From positions 51,478 through 115,477 of the forward strand of contig CAJXRZ010000001.1 in the NCBI GenBank assembly GCA_913060515.1: a DNA stretch of 64,000 bases. Reading direction: 5' to 3'. Shown here in pieces: positions 3,480 to 60,822 of the stretch. Source of the stretch: an uncultured Pseudomonadota bacterium. Lineage in GTDB: Bacteria > Myxococcota_A > UBA796 > CAJQPC01. Position 1 is the stretch's first letter, and the number at the start of each line of letters is the position of its first letter. The notes beneath the pieces were generated by a model. That model searched no databases, was not told the origin of the DNA, and worked only from the letters and a program-made list of their open reading frames with translations. The position numbers and the translations under genes were made by a program.

Positions 3480-3546
3480 GTGCTCGATCTCCGGTGGCCC
3501 AAGAGTGTAGCCGCAGTTGAGGTGACGCGCGGCTAGGGGCAGCTCC

Positions 3547-3996
3547 TTAGAGCGTGTCCAGGGCCAGCGCCTCCATCTCCTCGTGGCCGTCACGCCCTTG
3601 GCCTTCGCCAACGCGCTCCAGGTTCTGATCGATGACGATGTACTGGGGGCGACCTACGCCGGTGCGCCAGGCGTCCCATGCGATCTCGTCGGCGTCGTAG
3701 AGGACCGGGAAGCTCAGGCCGAGCTCGTCCACCCACTGGGCGTTCTCCTCGGGGGAGTCTGCGCGCAGCGCGGTGATGACCGTCAGGCCCAGGTCTTTGT
3801 TTTCGCTGTAGAAAGTCTCGGTATCTGGAGCCAGATCCCTACACGTTCCTCACCAAAAGGCGGACAGGTCCAGCAGAATCACGTCCCCCTGGAAGTCCGA
3901 GAGGGAGACGTCTTCCCCCAGGTGGTTGGGGAGCGTGAAGTCACCTGCGATGGCGTCTTGGGCGGGCTCGGCGCAGGCGAGCAGGAGCAGGAACAT
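3547..3996 (-). CDS. TlpA/ResA-like thioredoxin-fold thiol:disulfide oxidoreductase lipoprotein; predicted selenoprotein with Sec encoded by in-frame TGA at 3850-3852, redox motif W-U-G-T-C
   Basis: Track ORFs 3850..4083 and 3547..3732 are in the same frame (351 nt apart) and interrupted only by one TGA. Read-through gives MFLLLLACAEP...GDVILLDLSAFW[U]GTCRDLAPDTETFYSENKDLGLTVITALRADSPEENAQWVDELGLSFPVLYDADEIAWDAWRTGVGRPQYIVIDQNLERV... ATG 3996 has a GAGG SD about 7 nt upstream; lipobox LLLLAC. GC3 bias continues across the TGA. Confidence 0.6.
3807..3843 (-). other. Candidate bacterial SECIS-like stem-loop immediately 3' of the UGA (mRNA offsets +7 to +43)
   Basis: mRNA UGA-GGAACG-UGUAG-GG-AUCUG-GCUC-CAGAU-A-CC-GAGACUUU-CUACA: inner 5-bp stem AUCUG/CAGAU with tetraloop GCUC, extended by GG/CC, and an outer stem UGUAG/CUACA. 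Folded by eye only. Confidence 0.3.
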
Positions 3997-4052
3997 GGTG
4001 ACCTCGGTTGCAGGAGTGACGCCACTGGCCGGGAAAAGTTGCTGTGGGGTGA

Positions 4053-4547
4053 ATGGATTGGGTGTGCTTGCGTCTGTTCTCACTTCTCGGAGTCCCCTTG
4101 TTTGAGACCCTCTACCTGGCTGCCGCGCTCCTGCTGCTGTGTGTGGTGGTCGCCCTTGTGGCTGCGGTTGGCTTGGTCTGGTCCGTGGTGACCCGGCGCT
4201 GGGTAGGGGCGCTGGCCTTTGGCTTGCCGCTGCTCGTGGCGTCCCCCGGCTTGGTGTTCATCGGCGGAGTGGCGCGGATCTACCGAGTTCCGGACTGGTC
4301 GGGGCCCGTGGAGCTGGGCGAGCGCTATGCAGGGGGTGGGCAGGGTCTGGAGCTTCAGCAAGACGGCCGCTACGCCTGGGATGCAGGCGAGACTGGGACC
4401 TGGTCCTTTGAGCCCACGACAGGGCCCGATCTGACCCCGCACGCTGGCACGCTCACTCTGACCTCGCAGGCGGGTGAGCTTCGAGAGCTGGGGGCGCGCT
4501 GGGATGACGCCATCGGCGATCGCGGGCAGCTACTCCGGCTGCAGTAG
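4053..4547 (+). CDS. Hypothetical membrane protein with N-terminal TM segment
   Basis: GC3-rich frame; hydrophobic segment LYLAAALLLLCVVVALVAAVGLVWSVV. The start may instead be TTG 4098, which has a GGAG SD 5 nt upstream. Divergent from the thioredoxin gene. Confidence 0.5.
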   Translation: MDWVCLRLFSLLGVPLFETLYLAAALLLLCVVVALVAAVGLVWSVVTRRWVGALAFGLPLLVASPGLVFIGGVARIYRVPDWSGPVELGERYAGGGQGLELQQDGRYAWDAGETGTWSFEPTTGPDLTPHAGTLTLTSQAGELRELGARWDDAIGDRGQLLRLQ

Positions 4548-4841
4548 GGAGAGCACCCGCTCCAAGACCTGCTCCTTCTCCCCCTTGGCATCGACGATCC
4601 ACACCCGCTCATCTCCCGGGAACTGAAGGCTCACGCCCTCGCCCGAGCAGACGCCCAGGCAGTCCACCGTGGCCACGCGAATCTGACTGCGCCACAGCCC
4701 ACGGTCCTTGAGTTCCTGCTTCAGAAAACGTCTCAAGTCCTCGCTGCCCAAGGGGCCGCAGCTGGGGTTCTGGGCGCCCGGCTTTCTGTGCATGCCGCAG
4801 ACCAGGACCAGGCTCGGCGAGGCGGGTGGCACACACTTCAT
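4530..4841 (-). CDS. Thioredoxin-like [2Fe-2S] ferredoxin family protein (103 aa)
   Basis: MKCVPPASPSLVLVCGMHRKPGAQNPSCGP...VDCLGVCSGEGVSLQFPGDERVWIV with C-x8-C...C-x3-C cysteine spacing. It is the real C-terminal part of track ORF 4530..5918. ATG 4841 overlaps the pfkA stop (ATGA). Confidence 0.7.
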   Translation of the reverse strand: MKCVPPASPSLVLVCGMHRKPGAQNPSCGPLGSEDLRRFLKQELKDRGLWRSQIRVATVDCLGVCSGEGVSLQFPGDERVWIVDAKGEKEQVLERVLSLLQPE

Positions 4842-25295: not shown

Positions 25296-25381
25296 GGGGA
25301 CTCCGATGGGGCCGTCAGTCTACAGGGGTGGCTTGCTAACGGCGCCGGATGGTGGCTTTCTGGAGGGGATGGAGGCGAGTA

Positions 25382-27706
25382 ATGCTTGCTCTGACTTTGG
25401 CCCTGGTGATGGGTTGTGGCGATTCGGATGGCGACGGATTCAGAGGCGCTGAGGACTGCGATGAGTCCCAGGCTGGCGTGCATGTTGGCGCTGAGGAGAT
25501 CTGCGATGGCCTGGACAACGACTGCGATGGCTTTGTGGACAACGCGGCCGTCGATGGCGTGACCTACTTCTTGGACGGGGACCGAGACGGCTTCGGCAGC
25601 GACGATCTGAGTCAGGTGGCGTGCTCTGCCCCCTTGGGATTCGTCTCCGAGGGCGGGGACTGTGATGATCTGGAGCCCCTGGCCCATCCAGGCGCAGACG
25701 AGGTCTGTGACGGCGTGGACAACGACTGCGATGGTCTCCTGGACGGCGACGACGACTCGGTGGACTCCAGCACGGCCAGCGCCCACTGGATCGACTCGGA
25801 TCTGGACGGCTACGGGGATCCCGCCCAAGAGACCCTGAGCTGTGGTCCCTACGAAGGGGTCTCTGACAACCCCGATGACTGCAACGACTCAGACCCGGCG
25901 ATAAACCCAGAGACCTTCTGGTACGCGGACTTTGACGGGGATGGCTACGGGCAGACGGCCTACACAACCCAGTCCTGTGAGCAGCCCGATGGCTACGGCC
26001 CGGGGGCCGATGACTGCGATGACGACAACGATCAGGTCAACCCTGGAAGGGACGAGCTCTGCGACCTGGTGGACAACGACTGCGATGGTCAGATCGACGA
26101 GCCTGACGCGGTCGATGCGGTGGACTGGGTGCTGGACGTCGATGGGGACGGCTACGGCGTGACCGGAAGCGAAGTGCGTGGGTGTGTGGCGCCCGAGGGC
26201 TACGCGGCCCTGCCCGATGACTGCGATGACTCCGAGCCGACCATGAACCCGGGGGCCAGCGAGACCTGCGATCTGCTGGACAACGACTGCGATGGTGTTG
26301 TGGACTACGCCTACGCAGTGCCGGGCGACTTTGACACGCTCCAGGCCGCCCTGGACGGCTTGCCGGAAGGGGAAGGGGCCTGCGTGAGCGCAGGCACCTA
26401 CTACGAGAACTTGGACTGGACCCGAGATGTGACCCTGCGGGGCTGGCTGGACGAGGAGGTCGTGCTCGATGGTGGCTACACCACCTCGGTCGTGACGGTC
26501 ACAGGGACCTCGGATGCGGTGTTGGGTGAGATGCGTGTTCAGGGGGGCCAAGCGGCCTGGGGCGCGGGGATCTACGTCGACGGCGGGAGCTTCTTGCTCG
26601 AAGGCAGCACCTTGACAGGCCTGGACTGCATCTCAGGGCTGAGCTGCGATGGCTTGGCCGTCTACGTCCAGAACGGCGGCTCGGCGGCGTTCTCTGGGGT
26701 TGAGGTCAGCGGCGTGGAGCTGAGCCATGACCGCAGCGTCTACGGCCTGTTCCAGTGCGATGACACCGGCAGCTTGCAGATCCACGACACCCAAGTGCTG
26801 GACAACCTCATCGAGACCGTTGAGGACTACGACATCCACTGGCAGGGCTACCAGACCAACGCCTGCGAGACGGAGATGGATGGTTTTCTGCTCTCGGGGA
26901 ACATCATGCATGCCAGCGGGGCCCTGTACGGCTGGTCCTCTCGAGGCAGCGGCGCGGTGGTGAATGCCGACCACTGGGAGGTCTCCGACAACCTCTTGCA
27001 GGCCGACAACGCCATTCACGCGCAGTTCCTCTACAGCCGGAGCTACACGAACTTCACGGGCACCCACCTGGCGATGCTGGGCAACGAGATCATCGCCGAT
27101 GGCTCCACCTACGGATGGGTGCTGCGAGGCTCGGGCGCATCCTCCACCATCGGGCCGACCGTGATGTTGGTGAACAACCTCATCGTGGCTGGAAACGAGG
27201 TGTCCAACACCAACACCTCCGCCAATCTATACGGTGGGTTGTACCTGTATGGATCCAGTATGATCCTGAATAATGCCGACTTTGTCGACAACAACTTGAG
27301 CTCCTACAGCACCGCCTACACCCCGTGGTTCTACTTGAGCACCAGCACCAACTTGACGGTGCGAAACGTCAACGCGGTGGACAACCACTTTGTGGCGACC
27401 ACGGCCGGACGCGCCGACTTTTTCTACAGCTCCTCCTCCTCGGCGACGGCCGACTTGGACTACCTGAACCTGTCCGACAACACGGGCGGGAGCGACGTTC
27501 TCTACCTCTCGGGTACCTGGACGCCGGCCATCACCACCTACGAGGTGGACCCCAGCTACACCGACTTGAGCGGAGATGTCTGGGACTGGGATTTGCAGCT
27601 CAGCGGTGGCTCCTTGCTCGATGCCGGTGACCCCAACATCCTGGATGCGGACGGCAGCCGCTCGGACATGGGGGCCTATGGAGGGCCGGAGGGCACCACT
27701 TGGTAG
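25382..27706 (+). CDS. Lipoprotein with tandem MopE-type CDGxDNDCDG metal-binding repeats followed by a beta-helix region
   Basis: ATG 25382 with GGAGG SD; MLALTLALVMGCGDSDGD; at least 7 repeats of DCDD..P...PGA.E.CDG.DNDCDG. Confidence 0.75.
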   Translation: MLALTLALVMGCGDSDGDGFRGAEDCDESQAGVHVGAEEICDGLDNDCDGFVDNAAVDGVTYFLDGDRDGFGSDDLSQVACSAPLGFVSEGGDCDDLEPLAHPGADEVCDGVDNDCDGLLDGDDDSVDSSTASAHWIDSDLDGYGDPAQETLSCGPYEGVSDNPDDCNDSDPAINPETFWYADFDGDGYGQTAYTTQSCEQPDGYGPGADDCDDDNDQVNPGRDELCDLVDNDCDGQIDEPDAVDAVDWVLDVDGDGYGVTGSEVRGCVAPEGYAALPDDCDDSEPTMNPGASETCDLLDNDCDGVVDYAYAVPGDFDTLQAALDGLPEGEGACVSAGTYYENLDWTRDVTLRGWLDEEVVLDGGYTTSVVTVTGTSDAVLGEMRVQGGQAAWGAGIYVDGGSFLLEGSTLTGLDCISGLSCDGLAVYVQNGGSAAFSGVEVSGVELSHDRSVYGLFQCDDTGSLQIHDTQVLDNLIETVEDYDIHWQGYQTNACETEMDGFLLSGNIMHASGALYGWSSRGSGAVVNADHWEVSDNLLQADNAIHAQFLYSRSYTNFTGTHLAMLGNEIIADGSTYGWVLRGSGASSTIGPTVMLVNNLIVAGNEVSNTNTSANLYGGLYLYGSSMILNNADFVDNNLSSYSTAYTPWFYLSTSTNLTVRNVNAVDNHFVATTAGRADFFYSSSSSATADLDYLNLSDNTGGSDVLYLSGTWTPAITTYEVDPSYTDLSGDVWDWDLQLSGGSLLDAGDPNILDADGSRSDMGAYGGPEGTTW

Positions 27707-60123: not shown

Positions 60124-60135
60124 AAGGTGTACGCC

Positions 60136-60453
60136 ATGCCCCATCGCAACAACCCCGAAGAAGAAGAGTACTTCGCCCGCTTGGATGCGGAGAAGAAGGC
60201 CGCGCTGCGCAAGCGCTTGAACGTTGAGCACGCGGCTCAGGCCGCAGAGGAGCGCAAGGAGCGCCACTTCATGCACTGCGGAAAGTGTGGCGGACCGATG
60301 GCCCCCAAGCTCTTCAAGGGCGTGGAAGTCGACGTTTGCGGCGACTGTGGCGCTGTTCTGCTCGATCCTGGCGAGCTGGAGCAGCTCGCCGGTGAAGAGA
60401 GCCACGGCTTGGAGAACCTTGCGGCCTTCTTCGGCCTCAGCAAGGACGACTGA
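60136..60453 (+). CDS. zf-TFIIB-type zinc-ribbon domain protein
   Basis: HCGKCGGPMAPKLFKGVEVDVCGDCGAVLLDPGELEQL C4 ribbon; ATG 60136 with AGAAGG SD. Confidence 0.7.
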   Translation: MPHRNNPEEEEYFARLDAEKKAALRKRLNVEHAAQAAEERKERHFMHCGKCGGPMAPKLFKGVEVDVCGDCGAVLLDPGELEQLAGEESHGLENLAAFFGLSKDD

Positions 60454-60822
60454 GTGGATCTGGACTTTAAGCGCATCTCGGAGCGGGCTGGCCTTCAGGT
60501 TGAGCCGCAGCTGGAGTCTGCGCTTCAAGTCCAGGTCGACGCCTTGGCTGGCTATGCCAAGGCCTTGGGCGGACTGGAGCTGCCCGAGCACATCTCCGAG
60601 TCCCCAGCCATGCCGCTGCGACGTGATGTCGCCATGCCCGTGCCCAGCGCTCCGGTGCTCAAAGGCTTGGCCCGTCAGGGCGACCAGGTGCGGCTCCCGG
60701 GCGTTCCCCATGCCGAGAAGCGCAAAGTCGCCCGCGAGATCCGGCCGACGCGCATCGAACGGGTCTCCGACGGCAAGGAACTCCAGCTTCCCAGCTGGCC
60801 GCCCACTCGGGAGGACGCGTGA
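60454..60822 (+). CDS. gatC: Asp/Glu-tRNA amidotransferase subunit C with C-terminal extension
   Basis: GTG start; GatC-like helical N-terminus (I.E...L..L...E.E......L); immediately upstream of gatA and coupled to it. Confidence 0.65.
   Translation: MDLDFKRISERAGLQVEPQLESALQVQVDALAGYAKALGGLELPEHISESPAMPLRRDVAMPVPSAPVLKGLARQGDQVRLPGVPHAEKRKVAREIRPTRIERVSDGKELQLPSWPPTREDA

What the first reader, a model, noticed from the sequence alone, without database searches (positions are those of the whole stretch)
3807..3843. Stem-loop immediately 3' of the UGA, positioned like a bacterial SECIS
In the mRNA (minus strand) the UGA is followed after 6 nt by UGUAG-GG-AUCUG-GCUC-CAGAU-A-CC-GAGACUUU-CUACA. 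This gives an inner 5-bp stem with tetraloop, extended by GG/CC, enclosed in an outer 5-bp stem UGUAG/CUACA. Bacterial SECIS elements are hairpins within about 10-40 nt downstream of the UGA, inside the coding sequence. The fold was done by eye; loop identity versus SelB-binding consensus was not verified.
Basis: seen in the sequence. Interest (0 to 1): 0.55.

Follow-up and report, generated by a model that had tools for sequence, protein, structure and literature searches.

The report
Selenocysteine insertion hairpin in a redoxin gene
The small RNA hairpin after the in-frame UGA is a real, evolutionarily maintained selenocysteine-insertion (SECIS) signal in a thioredoxin-fold redox protein gene of an uncultured marine myxobacterium, which is an ordinary example of a well-known mechanism.

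Summary
The hairpin exists as described, on the minus strand at 3807-3843. It follows an in-frame UGA (3852-3850) that replaces the first Cys of a CxxC motif, giving FW-U-GTC, in a 149-aa AhpC/TSA-Redoxin (TlpA/ResA-like) protein.

Folding energy alone is no better than chance. Z-scores are -0.7 to -1.4, and 17% of all TGA triplets in the window pass the bacterial SECIS consensus.

Comparative evidence is decisive:
- Eleven TGA-containing homologues (about 31-93% protein identity) keep a 5-bp stem and a G-N-Y-C tetraloop in the same register.
- 55 of 55 inner-stem cells are paired, and 4 of the 5 pairs show compensatory double changes.
- Three Cys-containing homologues lack the hairpin.
- A covariance model built only from seven distant homologues finds this site as the only significant hit in the window (35.4 bits against 17.6 bits for sequence alone).

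The geometry equals E. coli fdhF: UGA, 11 nt, then a GG...CC minihelix with the tetraloop at nt 22-25.

No selA/B/C/D genes lie in the window, and SelB binding is untested.

Verdict: a new member of a known kind (a Prx-like/TlpA-like UxxC selenoprotein with a bacterial SECIS).

The parts
3547..3996 (-). Selenoprotein gene: 149 codons from ATG 3996-3994, in-frame UGA at codon 49, stop TAA 3549-3547. The product is an AhpC/TSA-Redoxin (TlpA/ResA-like) thioredoxin-fold protein with the motif FW-U-GTC.
   Evidence: Translation. Pfam AhpC-TSA 1.3e-17, Redoxin 3.3e-12, Thioredoxin 3.3e-5 with U read as C. Nearest solved structures are TlpA/ResA-like thioredoxin-family proteins, 2yp6/4hqz at E 2e-11. 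Coding-type GC profile on both sides of the TGA.
3850..3852 (-). In-frame UGA, read as selenocysteine; it takes the place of the first Cys of CxxC.
   Evidence: The same in-frame TGA is present in L001, L002, L004, L006 and L007. It is also present in distant homologues L008/L009, L010, L011/L012, L013, L014, L015 and L016. It aligns with TGC in Cys forms L017, L018 and L003. TGA is otherwise the commonest true stop in the window, ending 21 of 36 genes.
3839..3849 (-). 11-nt spacer between the UGA and the base of the minihelix. It holds the codons Gly-Thr-Cys, including the second Cys (TGT 3843-3841) of UxxC.
   Evidence: Sequence. The spacer length is the same in all 11 aligned homologues and in E. 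coli fdhF.
3820..3838 (-). Conserved SECIS minihelix GG-AUCUG-GCUC-CAGAU-A-CC. Base pairs GG 3838-3837 with CC 3821-3820; bulged or mismatched A at 3822.
   Evidence: RNAalifold consensus of 11 homologues. Pair counts and controls. MFE of the 19-mer is -5.5 kcal/mol with exactly this structure. A covariance model built from distant homologues hits 3817-3852 at 35.4 bits, E 4e-8.
3832..3836 (-). 5' arm of the inner 5-bp stem (AUCUG).
   Evidence: Paired in 11 of 11 sequences; 4 of the 5 pairs show changes on both sides.
3828..3831 (-). Apical tetraloop GCUC (the Ala codon GCU plus the first C of the Pro codon). In the family it reads G-[C/G/U]-[U/C]-C.
   Evidence: Alignment A3: G22 and C25 are invariant, and the closing pair G21-C26 is invariant.
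3823..3827 (-). 3' arm of the inner 5-bp stem (CAGAU).
3807..3811 (-). It is complementary in this sequence but not conserved, and is not part of the element.
   Evidence: 63.6% of cells paired, equal to the shuffled mean of 62.7%; 228 of 500 shuffles do as well.
3973..3975 (-). Cys8 in MFLLLLAC, a lipobox-like LLAC. Possible lipoprotein signal; uncertain, because the signal would be unusually short.
   Evidence: N-termini of homologues show LLAC/LVAC lipobox-like motifs. GAGG lies 5 nt upstream of the ATG, at 4005-4002. Inference only.

Best explanation
The 19-nt minihelix at 3838-3820 (minus strand) is a bacterial selenocysteine insertion sequence (SECIS). It begins 11 nt after the in-frame UGA and carries a G-C-U-C tetraloop.

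**Proposed mechanism (inferred from the established bacterial pathway).** While the ribosome approaches the UGA at codon 49, the hairpin in the downstream coding RNA is bound by the C-terminal domain of the specialised elongation factor SelB. SelB carries Sec-tRNA(Sec) and GTP. The fixed spacing places that tRNA at the A site, so UGA is decoded as selenocysteine instead of terminating.

**Product.** The result is a full-length 149-aa TlpA/ResA-like (Prx-like) thiol:disulfide oxidoreductase whose attacking active-site residue is Sec (U-G-T-C instead of C-x-x-C). It is probably exported or lipid-anchored.

**Shown here:**
- the UGA sits at the catalytic position;
- reading-frame conservation continues across it;
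- the hairpin is present;
- the hairpin shows evolutionary covariation and is exclusive to TGA forms;
- its geometry is identical to E. coli fdhF.

**Inferred:** SelB binding, actual Sec insertion, presence of selA/selB/selC/selD elsewhere in the genome, and the protein's location.
For: 1. **Protein context.** The UGA replaces the first Cys of CxxC in an AhpC-TSA/Redoxin fold. Coding continues for 100 codons after it.
2. **Close orthologues.** L001, L002/L004, L006 and L007 (84-99% aa identity) keep both the TGA and the downstream frame.
3. **Distant relatives are mostly cut genes.** An exhaustive HMMER search with the C-terminal 100 aa finds that most nearest relatives are short C-terminal fragments, meaning genes cut at the TGA by gene callers. 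DNA was fetched for 8 of these; 7 have TGA at the same UxxC position and 1 (P0026) has TGC.
4. **Covariation.** The alignment of 11 sequences is ungapped.
   - The inner stem is paired in 55 of 55 cells, with pair types AU/CG/GC, UA/CG/AU, CG/UA/GU and UA/CG/AU.
   - The 7-bp helix is 92.2% paired against 68.7% in shuffles (0 of 500 reach it).
   - The covariation score is 0.816 against 0.299 (0 of 500).
   - Slid registers reach at most 50.6% paired.
   - RNAalifold independently returns the same stem plus GG/CC with a bulge.
   - The synonymous third base of the Pro codon covaries with the second base of the codon before Ala.
5. **Cys-form homologues lack complementarity at the same register.** This holds for L017 WCTRC, L018 CGTC and L003 WCGPC. 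The model scores them 7.7 bits or gives no hit.
6. **Leave-out test.** A covariance model built from 7 distant homologues finds window 3817-3852(-) at 35.4 bits, with the next best hit at 13.4 bits. A sequence-only model gives 17.6 bits, so structure adds about 18 bits.
7. **Published bSECIS criteria** (PMC13188914): the loop is 4 nt, the stem is 5+2 bp, G is at loop position 1, the UGA-to-loop spacing is 18 nt, and the energy is -8.0 to -9.0 kcal/mol. All are met.
8. **Same geometry as E. coli fdhF.** Its sequence was verified in 5419 genomes: UGA, 11 nt, GG-U-UGCA-GGUC-UGCA-CC, with the tetraloop at nt 22-25.
9. **Codon usage.** The hairpin codons TGT AGG GAT CTG GCT CCA GAT include 5 of 7 A/T-ending codons in a genome with about 80% GC3. 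Only 0.8% of 7-codon windows reach this count.
10. **One substitution improves pairing.** In L002 an A-to-U change turns the G/A mismatch into G-U, extending the stem to 8 bp.
Against: - No selA, selB, selD or tRNA-Sec gene lies in the 64-kb window. This is uninformative for a genome of several Mb, but it means the Sec trait of this organism is not shown.
- The loop is GCUC, or GCCC in L001 and L002. It is not the commoner G[G/U] motif, and it lacks the G23 of the E. coli GGUC loop.
- Folding z-scores are not significant.
- Within the close clade alone, synonymous-site conservation of the hairpin is only suggestive: 1 of 7 third positions varies against 69 of 149 overall, P = 0.085.
- No Rfam family matches.
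- The family model does not recognise the E. coli fdhF SECIS.
- No binding or labelling experiment exists.
Confidence: 0.88

Rival explanations
1. Chance hairpin: the TGA is a genuine stop, a pseudogene lesion or an assembly error, and the complementarity is what any GC-rich coding sequence gives.
For: Folding z-scores are only -0.7 to -1.4. 17% of all TGA triplets in the window pass the bSECIS criteria.
Against: The same TGA is present in at least 12 independent assemblies spanning about 31-99% protein identity. The reading frame and the thioredoxin fold continue across it. Compensatory changes keep the stem. Cys forms have TGC at that codon.
Confidence: 0.01
2. The complementarity is a by-product of protein constraints (the conserved Ala-Pro after the CxxC helix plus flanking residues), not a selected RNA structure.
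For: The loop (GCN-C) is encoded by Ala-Pro, which is also conserved in Cys-containing thioredoxin-fold proteins such as L003 'LAPI', L017 'AAPE' and L018 'LAPE'.
Against: Those three Cys forms share the Ala-Pro but have no stem at that register, and they score 7.7 bits or less with the structural model. The stem arms lie on variable residues (D-L/D, T-L/E, S-S/S, S-Q/G, A-A/L and others) whose nucleotides nevertheless stay complementary. The silent third base of Pro tracks the second base of the upstream codon. Rare codons are used.
Confidence: 0.03
3. The hairpin is a functional recoding signal, but not a SelB-dependent one. For example, it could be a read-through stimulator that lets a near-cognate tRNA (Trp, Cys or Gly) decode UGA, or a pause or stability element.
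For: No Sec machinery was seen in the window. The loop departs from the E. coli G23-U24 determinant. One public record translated the TGA as W (P0008), although that is a gene-caller choice and not data.
Against: The UGA sits exactly at the redox-active Cys of CxxC. That is the hallmark of Cys/Sec pairs and of the known Prx-like/Trx-like UxxC selenoprotein families (PMC2398784; PMC13188914). The spacing and architecture equal the fdhF SECIS. A Trp or Gly at that position would kill the active site.
Confidence: 0.05
4. The element is the full two-tier structure proposed by the reader, in which the outer stem UGUAG/CUACA encloses the inner hairpin.
For: Both tiers are complementary in the window sequence, with a by-eye fold of -8.0 kcal/mol.
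Against: The outer-stem pairs are kept in only 63.6% of cells, equal to shuffles, with 1 double change. In the window's own MFE folds, the lower stem uses other partners, including the UGA itself.
Confidence: 0.05

Closest known systems
E. coli fdhF SECIS (the experimentally defined bacterial SECIS; minimal 17-nt upper stem-loop placed 11 nt after UGA)
   Same: It lies inside the coding sequence directly after the Sec UGA. It has an 11-nt spacer, then a GG...CC-based minihelix with one unpaired nucleotide, a 4-5-bp upper stem and a 4-nt loop G-N-U-C. The loop occupies nt 22-25 counted from the U of UGA in both. Neither stands out in shuffle z-scores.
   Different: The loop is GCUC rather than GGUC, so there is no G at the second loop position. 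The unpaired base is an A on the 3' side, and only in this clade, rather than the bulged U on the 5' side. The upper stem is 5 bp rather than 4 bp. There is no conserved lower stem. The family-specific covariance model does not score the fdhF element. The role of the 11-nt distance and of G23/U24 in E. coli is cited from my own knowledge of the literature and was not tested here.
Consensus bSECIS model (bSECISearch; Zhang and Gladyshev 2005, as summarised in PMC13188914 Fig. 2A)
   Same: Loop of 3-9 nt (here 4). Upper stem of 4-16 bp (here 5, or 7 with GG/CC). G in the first two loop positions (here position 1, invariant in 11 of 11). UGA-to-loop distance of 16-37 nt (here 18). MFE of -7.5 kcal/mol or lower (here -8.0 to -9.0 for 37-41 nt).
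   Different: The loop does not follow the commoner G[G|U] pattern in the window clade (GC). Two relatives do follow it: GGUC in L010 and GUUC in L008.
Prx-like 1 / 'Prx-like thiol:disulfide oxidoreductase' selenoproteins (PF00578, UxxC), and the related 'thiol-disulfide isomerase-like' (cd02966) and 'Redoxin family' (PF08534) UxxC selenoproteins
   Same: PF00578 and PF08534 domains, a UxxC motif with Sec as the first residue, abundant Cys homologues, and marine metagenome occurrence.
   Different: Which of these literature subfamilies it belongs to was not resolved. It falls below the curated cut-off of every NCBIfam model (best is ResA at 46 against 170 bits). It forms a distinct subgroup with an RPQY-x-V-x-D-R-D motif and a G-x-G-x-x-GH...LL C-terminus.
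NF041054 ResA-like WAxxUGC motif-containing selenoprotein
   Same: A ResA-like thioredoxin fold with Sec in the active-site region.
   Different: It scores 33.7 bits against a cut-off of 300. The motif is FW-U-GTC, not WAxxUGC, and the protein has 149 aa against a 354-position model. It is not a member.

Membership tests
Bacterial SECIS (consensus bSECIS model) | Stem-loop within the coding region immediately 3' of an in-frame UGA | tested here: met
   The UGA is at 3852-3850 and the minihelix at 3838-3820, on the same strand and in the same frame of a 149-codon ORF.
Bacterial SECIS (consensus bSECIS model) | Apical loop of 3-9 nt on an upper stem of 4-16 bp | tested here: met
   4-nt loop GCUC. 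The stem is 5 bp plus GG/CC.
Bacterial SECIS (consensus bSECIS model) | At least one G in the first two loop positions (mostly G followed by G or U) | tested here: met
   G at loop position 1 is invariant in 11 of 11 homologues. The preferred G[G|U] is not present in the window (GC) but is present in L010 (GG) and L008 (GU).
Bacterial SECIS (consensus bSECIS model) | 16-37 nt between the UGA and the apical loop | tested here: met
   18 nt in all 11 sequences.
Bacterial SECIS (consensus bSECIS model) | MFE of -7.5 kcal/mol or lower | tested here: met
   -8.0 (by-eye fold) and -8.6 (MFE) for 37 nt; -9.0 for 41 nt; -12.7 for 53 nt. The 19-nt minihelix alone is -5.5. 17% of random TGA sites in the window also pass the full set of criteria.
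Bacterial SECIS (consensus bSECIS model) | Structure conserved with the UGA in orthologues and absent from Cys forms | tested here: met
Bacterial SECIS (consensus bSECIS model) | Bound by SelB and directs Sec insertion | not testable with these tools
   Needs binding or read-through assays, or 75Se labelling.
Bacterial SECIS (consensus bSECIS model) | Host genome encodes selA, selB, selC (tRNA-Sec) and selD | tested here: inconclusive
   None was found in the 64-kb window: no tRNA and no Pfam match to sel proteins among 40 ORFs. The rest of the genome is not available.
E. coli fdhF-type SECIS | Minimal upper stem-loop placed 11 nt after the UGA | tested here: met
   Both have 11 nt between the UGA and the GG at the helix base.
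E. coli fdhF-type SECIS | GGUC loop with G23/U24, and a bulged U on the 5' strand | tested here: not met
   The loop is GCUC. The unpaired base is an A on the 3' strand. The family model gives no hit on fdhF.
Prx-like/TlpA-like UxxC selenoproteins (PF00578/PF08534) | AhpC-TSA or Redoxin domain | tested here: met
   PF00578 at 64.4 bits (cut-off 26) and PF08534 at 46.9 bits (cut-off 26.6).
Prx-like/TlpA-like UxxC selenoproteins (PF00578/PF08534) | The TGA aligns with the first Cys of CxxC in Cys homologues | tested here: met
   FW-U-GTC against WCTRC (L017), CGTC (L018) and WCGPC (L003, and PDB 2yp6).
Prx-like/TlpA-like UxxC selenoproteins (PF00578/PF08534) | TGA-containing homologues in other organisms | tested here: met
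NF041054 ResA-like WAxxUGC selenoprotein | Score above the curated cut-off, and a WAxxUGC motif | tested here: not met
   33.7 bits against 300, and the motif differs.
Any Rfam RNA family | Match at the gathering score | tested here: not met
   No match at gathering score in the window. Only chance-level hits to unrelated families appear at E of 10 or less in 3700-3950.

The most novel reading that the evidence does not exclude
The SECIS of this redoxin subfamily is built on the protein-level conserved Ala-Pro that follows the CxxC helix in thioredoxin-fold proteins. The tetraloop is the Ala codon GCU plus the C of Pro, closed by an invariant G-C pair, and the stem arms sit on the variable flanking codons.

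If this is general, thioredoxin-fold genes carry a ready-made SECIS loop at exactly the fdhF spacing (nt 22-25 after the first Cys codon). Only a few mostly conservative changes in the flanks would then be needed to turn a CxxC protein into a UxxC selenoprotein. That would help explain why Trx-fold UxxC families dominate bacterial selenoproteomes.

It would also define a G-C-U-C loop class of bSECIS that the SelB of marine Myxococcota and their neighbours must recognise.
Probability: 0.25. Interest if true: 0.4.

Novelty: new member of a known kind. Interest (0 to 1): 0.25.

Why it matters
It shows that the gene at 3547-3996 is one selenoprotein gene and not two small ORFs, as public gene callers have annotated its relatives: as split fragments, or once with TGA read as Trp.

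It also gives a clean, covariation-supported SECIS model for one subgroup of TlpA/Prx-like UxxC selenoproteins, in uncultured marine Myxococcota and other bacteria.

This helps annotation and selenoproteome surveys. It does not change any concept: both the mechanism and the protein class are well known.

Tried and rejected
- **Folding significance on single sequences**: not discriminating. The proven fdhF SECIS is also non-significant, so it was dropped as a criterion.
- **Rfam**, at gathering score and at E of 10 or less: nothing relevant.
- **First single-sequence word-indexed protein search**: found only 2 fragments and was too insensitive.
- **Profile search with alignment A2**: swamped by full-length Cys-type TlpA/peroxiredoxin proteins, because two full-length rows were included.
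- **Genome contigs and metagenome-contig scans**: returned only close orthologues and an unrelated thioredoxin (L003/L005). The thioredoxin was kept as a Cys control.
- **P0023:** no DNA was available.
- **P0026:** assumed to be a TGA fragment, but it turned out to be a Cys form cut by a contig end. It was used as a control.
tested and rejected.
- **Scan for other in-frame TGA selenoprotein candidates in the window**: none convincing.
- **Search for sel genes or tRNA-Sec in the window**: none found.
- **Family covariance model against E. coli fdhF**: no hit, so the likeness is in geometry and not in sequence family.
- **Synonymous-site conservation within the close clade**: only suggestive, P = 0.085.
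Full report
**1. What is in the sequence**

On the minus strand the RNA reads ...GCC UUU UGG UGA GGA ACG UGU AGG GAU CUG GCU CCA GAU ACC GAG ACU UUC UAC AGC....

- The UGA is at 3852-3850.
- The frame opened by ATG 3996-3994 runs through the UGA to TAA 3549-3547. A GAGG lies 5 nt upstream of the ATG.
- Both halves have the GC1/GC2/GC3 profile of real genes in this 65% GC window.
- With U read as C, the 149-aa product matches Pfam AhpC-TSA (1.3e-17), Redoxin (3.3e-12) and Thioredoxin.
- Its nearest solved structures are TlpA/ResA-like extracytoplasmic thioredoxin-family proteins (2yp6, 4hqz, ResA).
- The UGA takes the place of the first Cys of the CxxC motif: FW-U-GTC against WCGPC.
- TGA is also the commonest ordinary stop in the window, ending 21 of 36 genes. 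The codon is therefore not reassigned genome-wide.

**2. Is the hairpin more than chance? Not on one sequence**

- The by-eye fold of 3843-3807 is worth -8.0 kcal/mol. The MFE of those 37 nt is -8.6 kcal/mol, but for a different pairing.
- In longer contexts the MFE keeps the apical hairpin and the GG/CC pairs, while pairing the lower part differently, including with the UGA itself. Pair probabilities of the apical stem are 0.91-0.98.
- Z-scores against dinucleotide shuffles are only -0.69, -0.94 and -1.44.
- I applied the published bSECIS criteria to every TGA triplet in the window, on both strands. Of 1559 triplets, 272 (17%) passed. Passing the consensus is therefore weak evidence.
- The same shuffle test on the experimentally defined E. 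coli fdhF SECIS gives z of -0.67 and -1.22. Its sequence was verified in 5419 E. coli genomes. The test is simply not discriminating for such small elements.

**3. Comparative evidence**

*Close orthologues.* L001 (93% aa), L002/L004 (84%), L006 and L007 all carry the in-frame TGA with conserved coding sequence on both sides.

- In these, TGTAGGGATCTGGCYCCAGAT is invariant except for loop position 3 (T/C).
- One further change (A to U at 3822, found in L002) converts the G/A mismatch into a G-U pair and gives an 8-bp stem.
- Within this clade the paucity of silent changes is only suggestive: 1 of 7 third positions varies against 69 of 149 overall, P = 0.085.
- The seven core codons include five A/T-ending codons (TGT, GAT, GCT, CCA, GAT) plus the rare Arg codon AGG, in a genome with about 80% GC3. 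Only 0.8% of 7-codon windows in the window's genes reach that A/T-ending count.

*Distant relatives.* An exhaustive HMMER search with the 100 residues after the UGA returned 46 representatives.

- Most of the best hits are 55-104-aa proteins that begin just after the U position. This is what gene callers produce when a gene is cut at an internal TGA.
- I fetched DNA for eight of them. Seven (L008/L009, L010, L011/L012, L013, L014, L015, L016; about 31-36% identity) have TGA at exactly the UxxC position: FT-U-MTC, YT-U-GSC, FW-U-STC, FT-U-SAC, PG-U-RGC, FT-U-GAC, FT-U-SAC.
- The eighth (P0026/L018) is a Cys form (CGTC) truncated by a contig end.

*Covariation.* All eleven distinct TGA sequences align without gaps from the TGA. 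Numbering the T of TGA as 1, positions 17-21 pair with 30-26 in all of them.

| Stem (5' arm / 3' arm) | Found in |
|---|---|
| AUCUG/CAGAU | window clade |
| CUCUG/CAGAG | L008, L011 |
| GCUCG/CGAGC | L010 |
| CCCAG/CUGGG | L013 |
| ACUCG/CGAGU | L014 |
| CCCUG/CAGGG | L015 |
| CAGCG/CGUUG | L016 |

- Inner-stem cells are paired 55 of 55 times, and four of the five pairs show changes on both sides.
- For the 7-bp helix 15-21/26-32, 92.2% of cells pair against 68.7% after shuffling (0 of 500 shuffles reach it).
- The covariation score is 0.816 against 0.299 (0 of 500).
- Sliding the 3' arm by 1-3 nt drops pairing to 14-51%.
- The silent third base of the Pro codon (A/G/U) tracks the second base of the codon before Ala (U/C/A). 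No protein-level constraint explains this.
It is not part of the element.

*Controls.*

- Three Cys-type homologues share the Ala-Pro that encodes the loop but have no complementary arms at that register. They are L017 (WCTRC, the closest full-length Cys relative), L018 (CGTC) and L003 (a thioredoxin, WCGPC).
- A covariance model built only from the seven distant sequences, with the window and its close relatives left out, finds window 3817-3852(-) at 35.4 bits (E about 4e-8). This is the only significant hit in 128 kb; the next best is 13.4 bits.
- The same alignment without structure gives 17.6 bits.
- The model scores the close orthologues 32-41 bits. It scores the homologous Cys site of L018 only 7.7 bits and does not report those of L017 or L003.

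**4. How it most likely works**

The element has the layout of a bacterial SECIS. The consensus criteria quoted in the 2026 review PMC13188914 are all met:

| Criterion | Consensus | Here |
|---|---|---|
| Apical loop | 3-9 nt | 4 nt |
| Upper stem | 4-16 bp | 5 bp, or 7 with GG/CC |
| UGA-to-loop spacing | 16-37 nt | 18 nt |
| MFE | -7.5 kcal/mol or lower | -8.0 to -9.0 kcal/mol |

The geometry is that of E. coli fdhF:

- fdhF: UGA, N11, GG-U-UGCA-GGUC-UGCA-CC.
- Here: UGA, N11, GG-AUCUG-GCUC-CAGAU-A-CC.
- In both, the tetraloop occupies nt 22-25.

I therefore infer the established mechanism. SelB·GTP·Sec-tRNA(Sec) binds the apical hairpin as the ribosome reaches the UGA. The fixed spacer delivers the tRNA to the A site, and Sec is inserted as the nucleophilic residue of a U-x-x-C thiol:disulfide oxidoreductase.

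N-termini in the family carry lipobox-like LLAC/LVAC motifs. This fits the extracytoplasmic TlpA/ResA type. In the window clade, however, the signal (MFLLLLAC) would be unusually short, so localisation is only a guess.

*Not shown:* SelB binding, Sec insertion, and the presence of selA/B/C/D. None of these genes lies in the window, which says little for a genome of several Mb. By TypA similarity the organism is an uncultured member of Myxococcota, 88% identical to a Myxococcota MAG.

**5. Comparison with what is known**

*The protein.*

- It belongs to the well-known set of Trx-fold UxxC selenoproteins. These include 'Prx-like 1' (pfam00578, UxxC), with 225 sequences in the GOS survey (PMC2398784). 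They also include the 'Prx-like thiol:disulfide oxidoreductase', 'thiol-disulfide isomerase-like' and 'Redoxin family' entries of the 2026 review.
- It is below the cut-off of every NCBIfam model. It is not a member of the WAxxUGC ResA-like selenoprotein family (33.7 against 300 bits; different motif).

*The RNA.*

- It meets the bSECIS consensus.
- It differs from fdhF in the loop (GCUC, not GGUC) and in the side of the unpaired base.
- It has no Rfam counterpart, and its model does not detect fdhF.
- It works like fdhF's SECIS and is a member of the broad bSECIS class, but it is not a sequence relative of the E. coli element.

**6. Novelty and verdict**

The finding is correct and ordinary. 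It is a new member of a known kind.

The one mildly interesting point is that the loop is the Ala-Pro codon pair, which is conserved at protein level throughout thioredoxin-fold proteins. It is positioned at the same distance from the active-site codon as the fdhF loop is from its UGA. This may make Cys-to-Sec conversion easy in this fold. I did not test that generalisation.

- Confidence that this is a functional SECIS: about 0.88.
- Interest: 0.25.

Noticed in passing
window 4043-4557: About 515 bp lie between the phosphofructokinase gene and the selenoprotein gene. This stretch is present in the window and L001, and in L007 as far as that contig reaches, but is absent from L002/L004, where only 8 nt join the flanks. 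It holds a 164-aa ORF (4053-4547, + strand) with a coding-like GC profile and no Pfam match.
   Followed up: partly
window 3544-3557 and downstream; L001 >1795, L002 >5440, L007 >792: Similarity between the window and all orthologous contigs stops at the stop codon of the selenoprotein gene, so the downstream neighbours differ. In the window the neighbour is an 815-aa Trans_reg_C protein; in L007 it is hemerythrin and Fpg. Upstream (PFK and beyond), synteny is kept.
   Followed up: partly
L001 (JBLHMA010000259.1): This contig is labelled as a Cognaticolwellia sp. MAG. Yet it is 77% identical over 1.8 kb to this Myxococcota-like window and carries the same selenoprotein gene (93% aa). It is probably a mis-binned contig.
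   Followed up: no
public protein records P0001-P0030, P0008: Public gene calls split this gene family at the TGA into N- and C-terminal fragments. One record (P0008, TARA scaffold L010) shows W at the TGA position, as if translated with a TGA=Trp code.
   Followed up: yes
window 60124-60822 (+): Two coding-like ORFs in the same frame are separated by a single TGA at 60451-60453. The first has a TFIIB-type zinc-ribbon domain and the second has no Pfam match. There is no Cys-type motif at the TGA, so these are most likely two adjacent genes.
   Followed up: partly
window 25349-27706 (+): A 785-aa protein carries four MopE-type putative metal-binding repeats (PF11617, 4.9e-39). It is flanked by hybrid histidine kinases, an M28 peptidase and an amidohydrolase/PD40 protein.
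   Followed up: no
window 3973-3996 (-): The predicted N-terminus MFLLLLAC has a lipobox-like LLAC after only seven residues and has no charged n-region. In L006 the Met is replaced and the frame stays open upstream. The true start and the export signal of this clade are therefore uncertain.
   Followed up: partly
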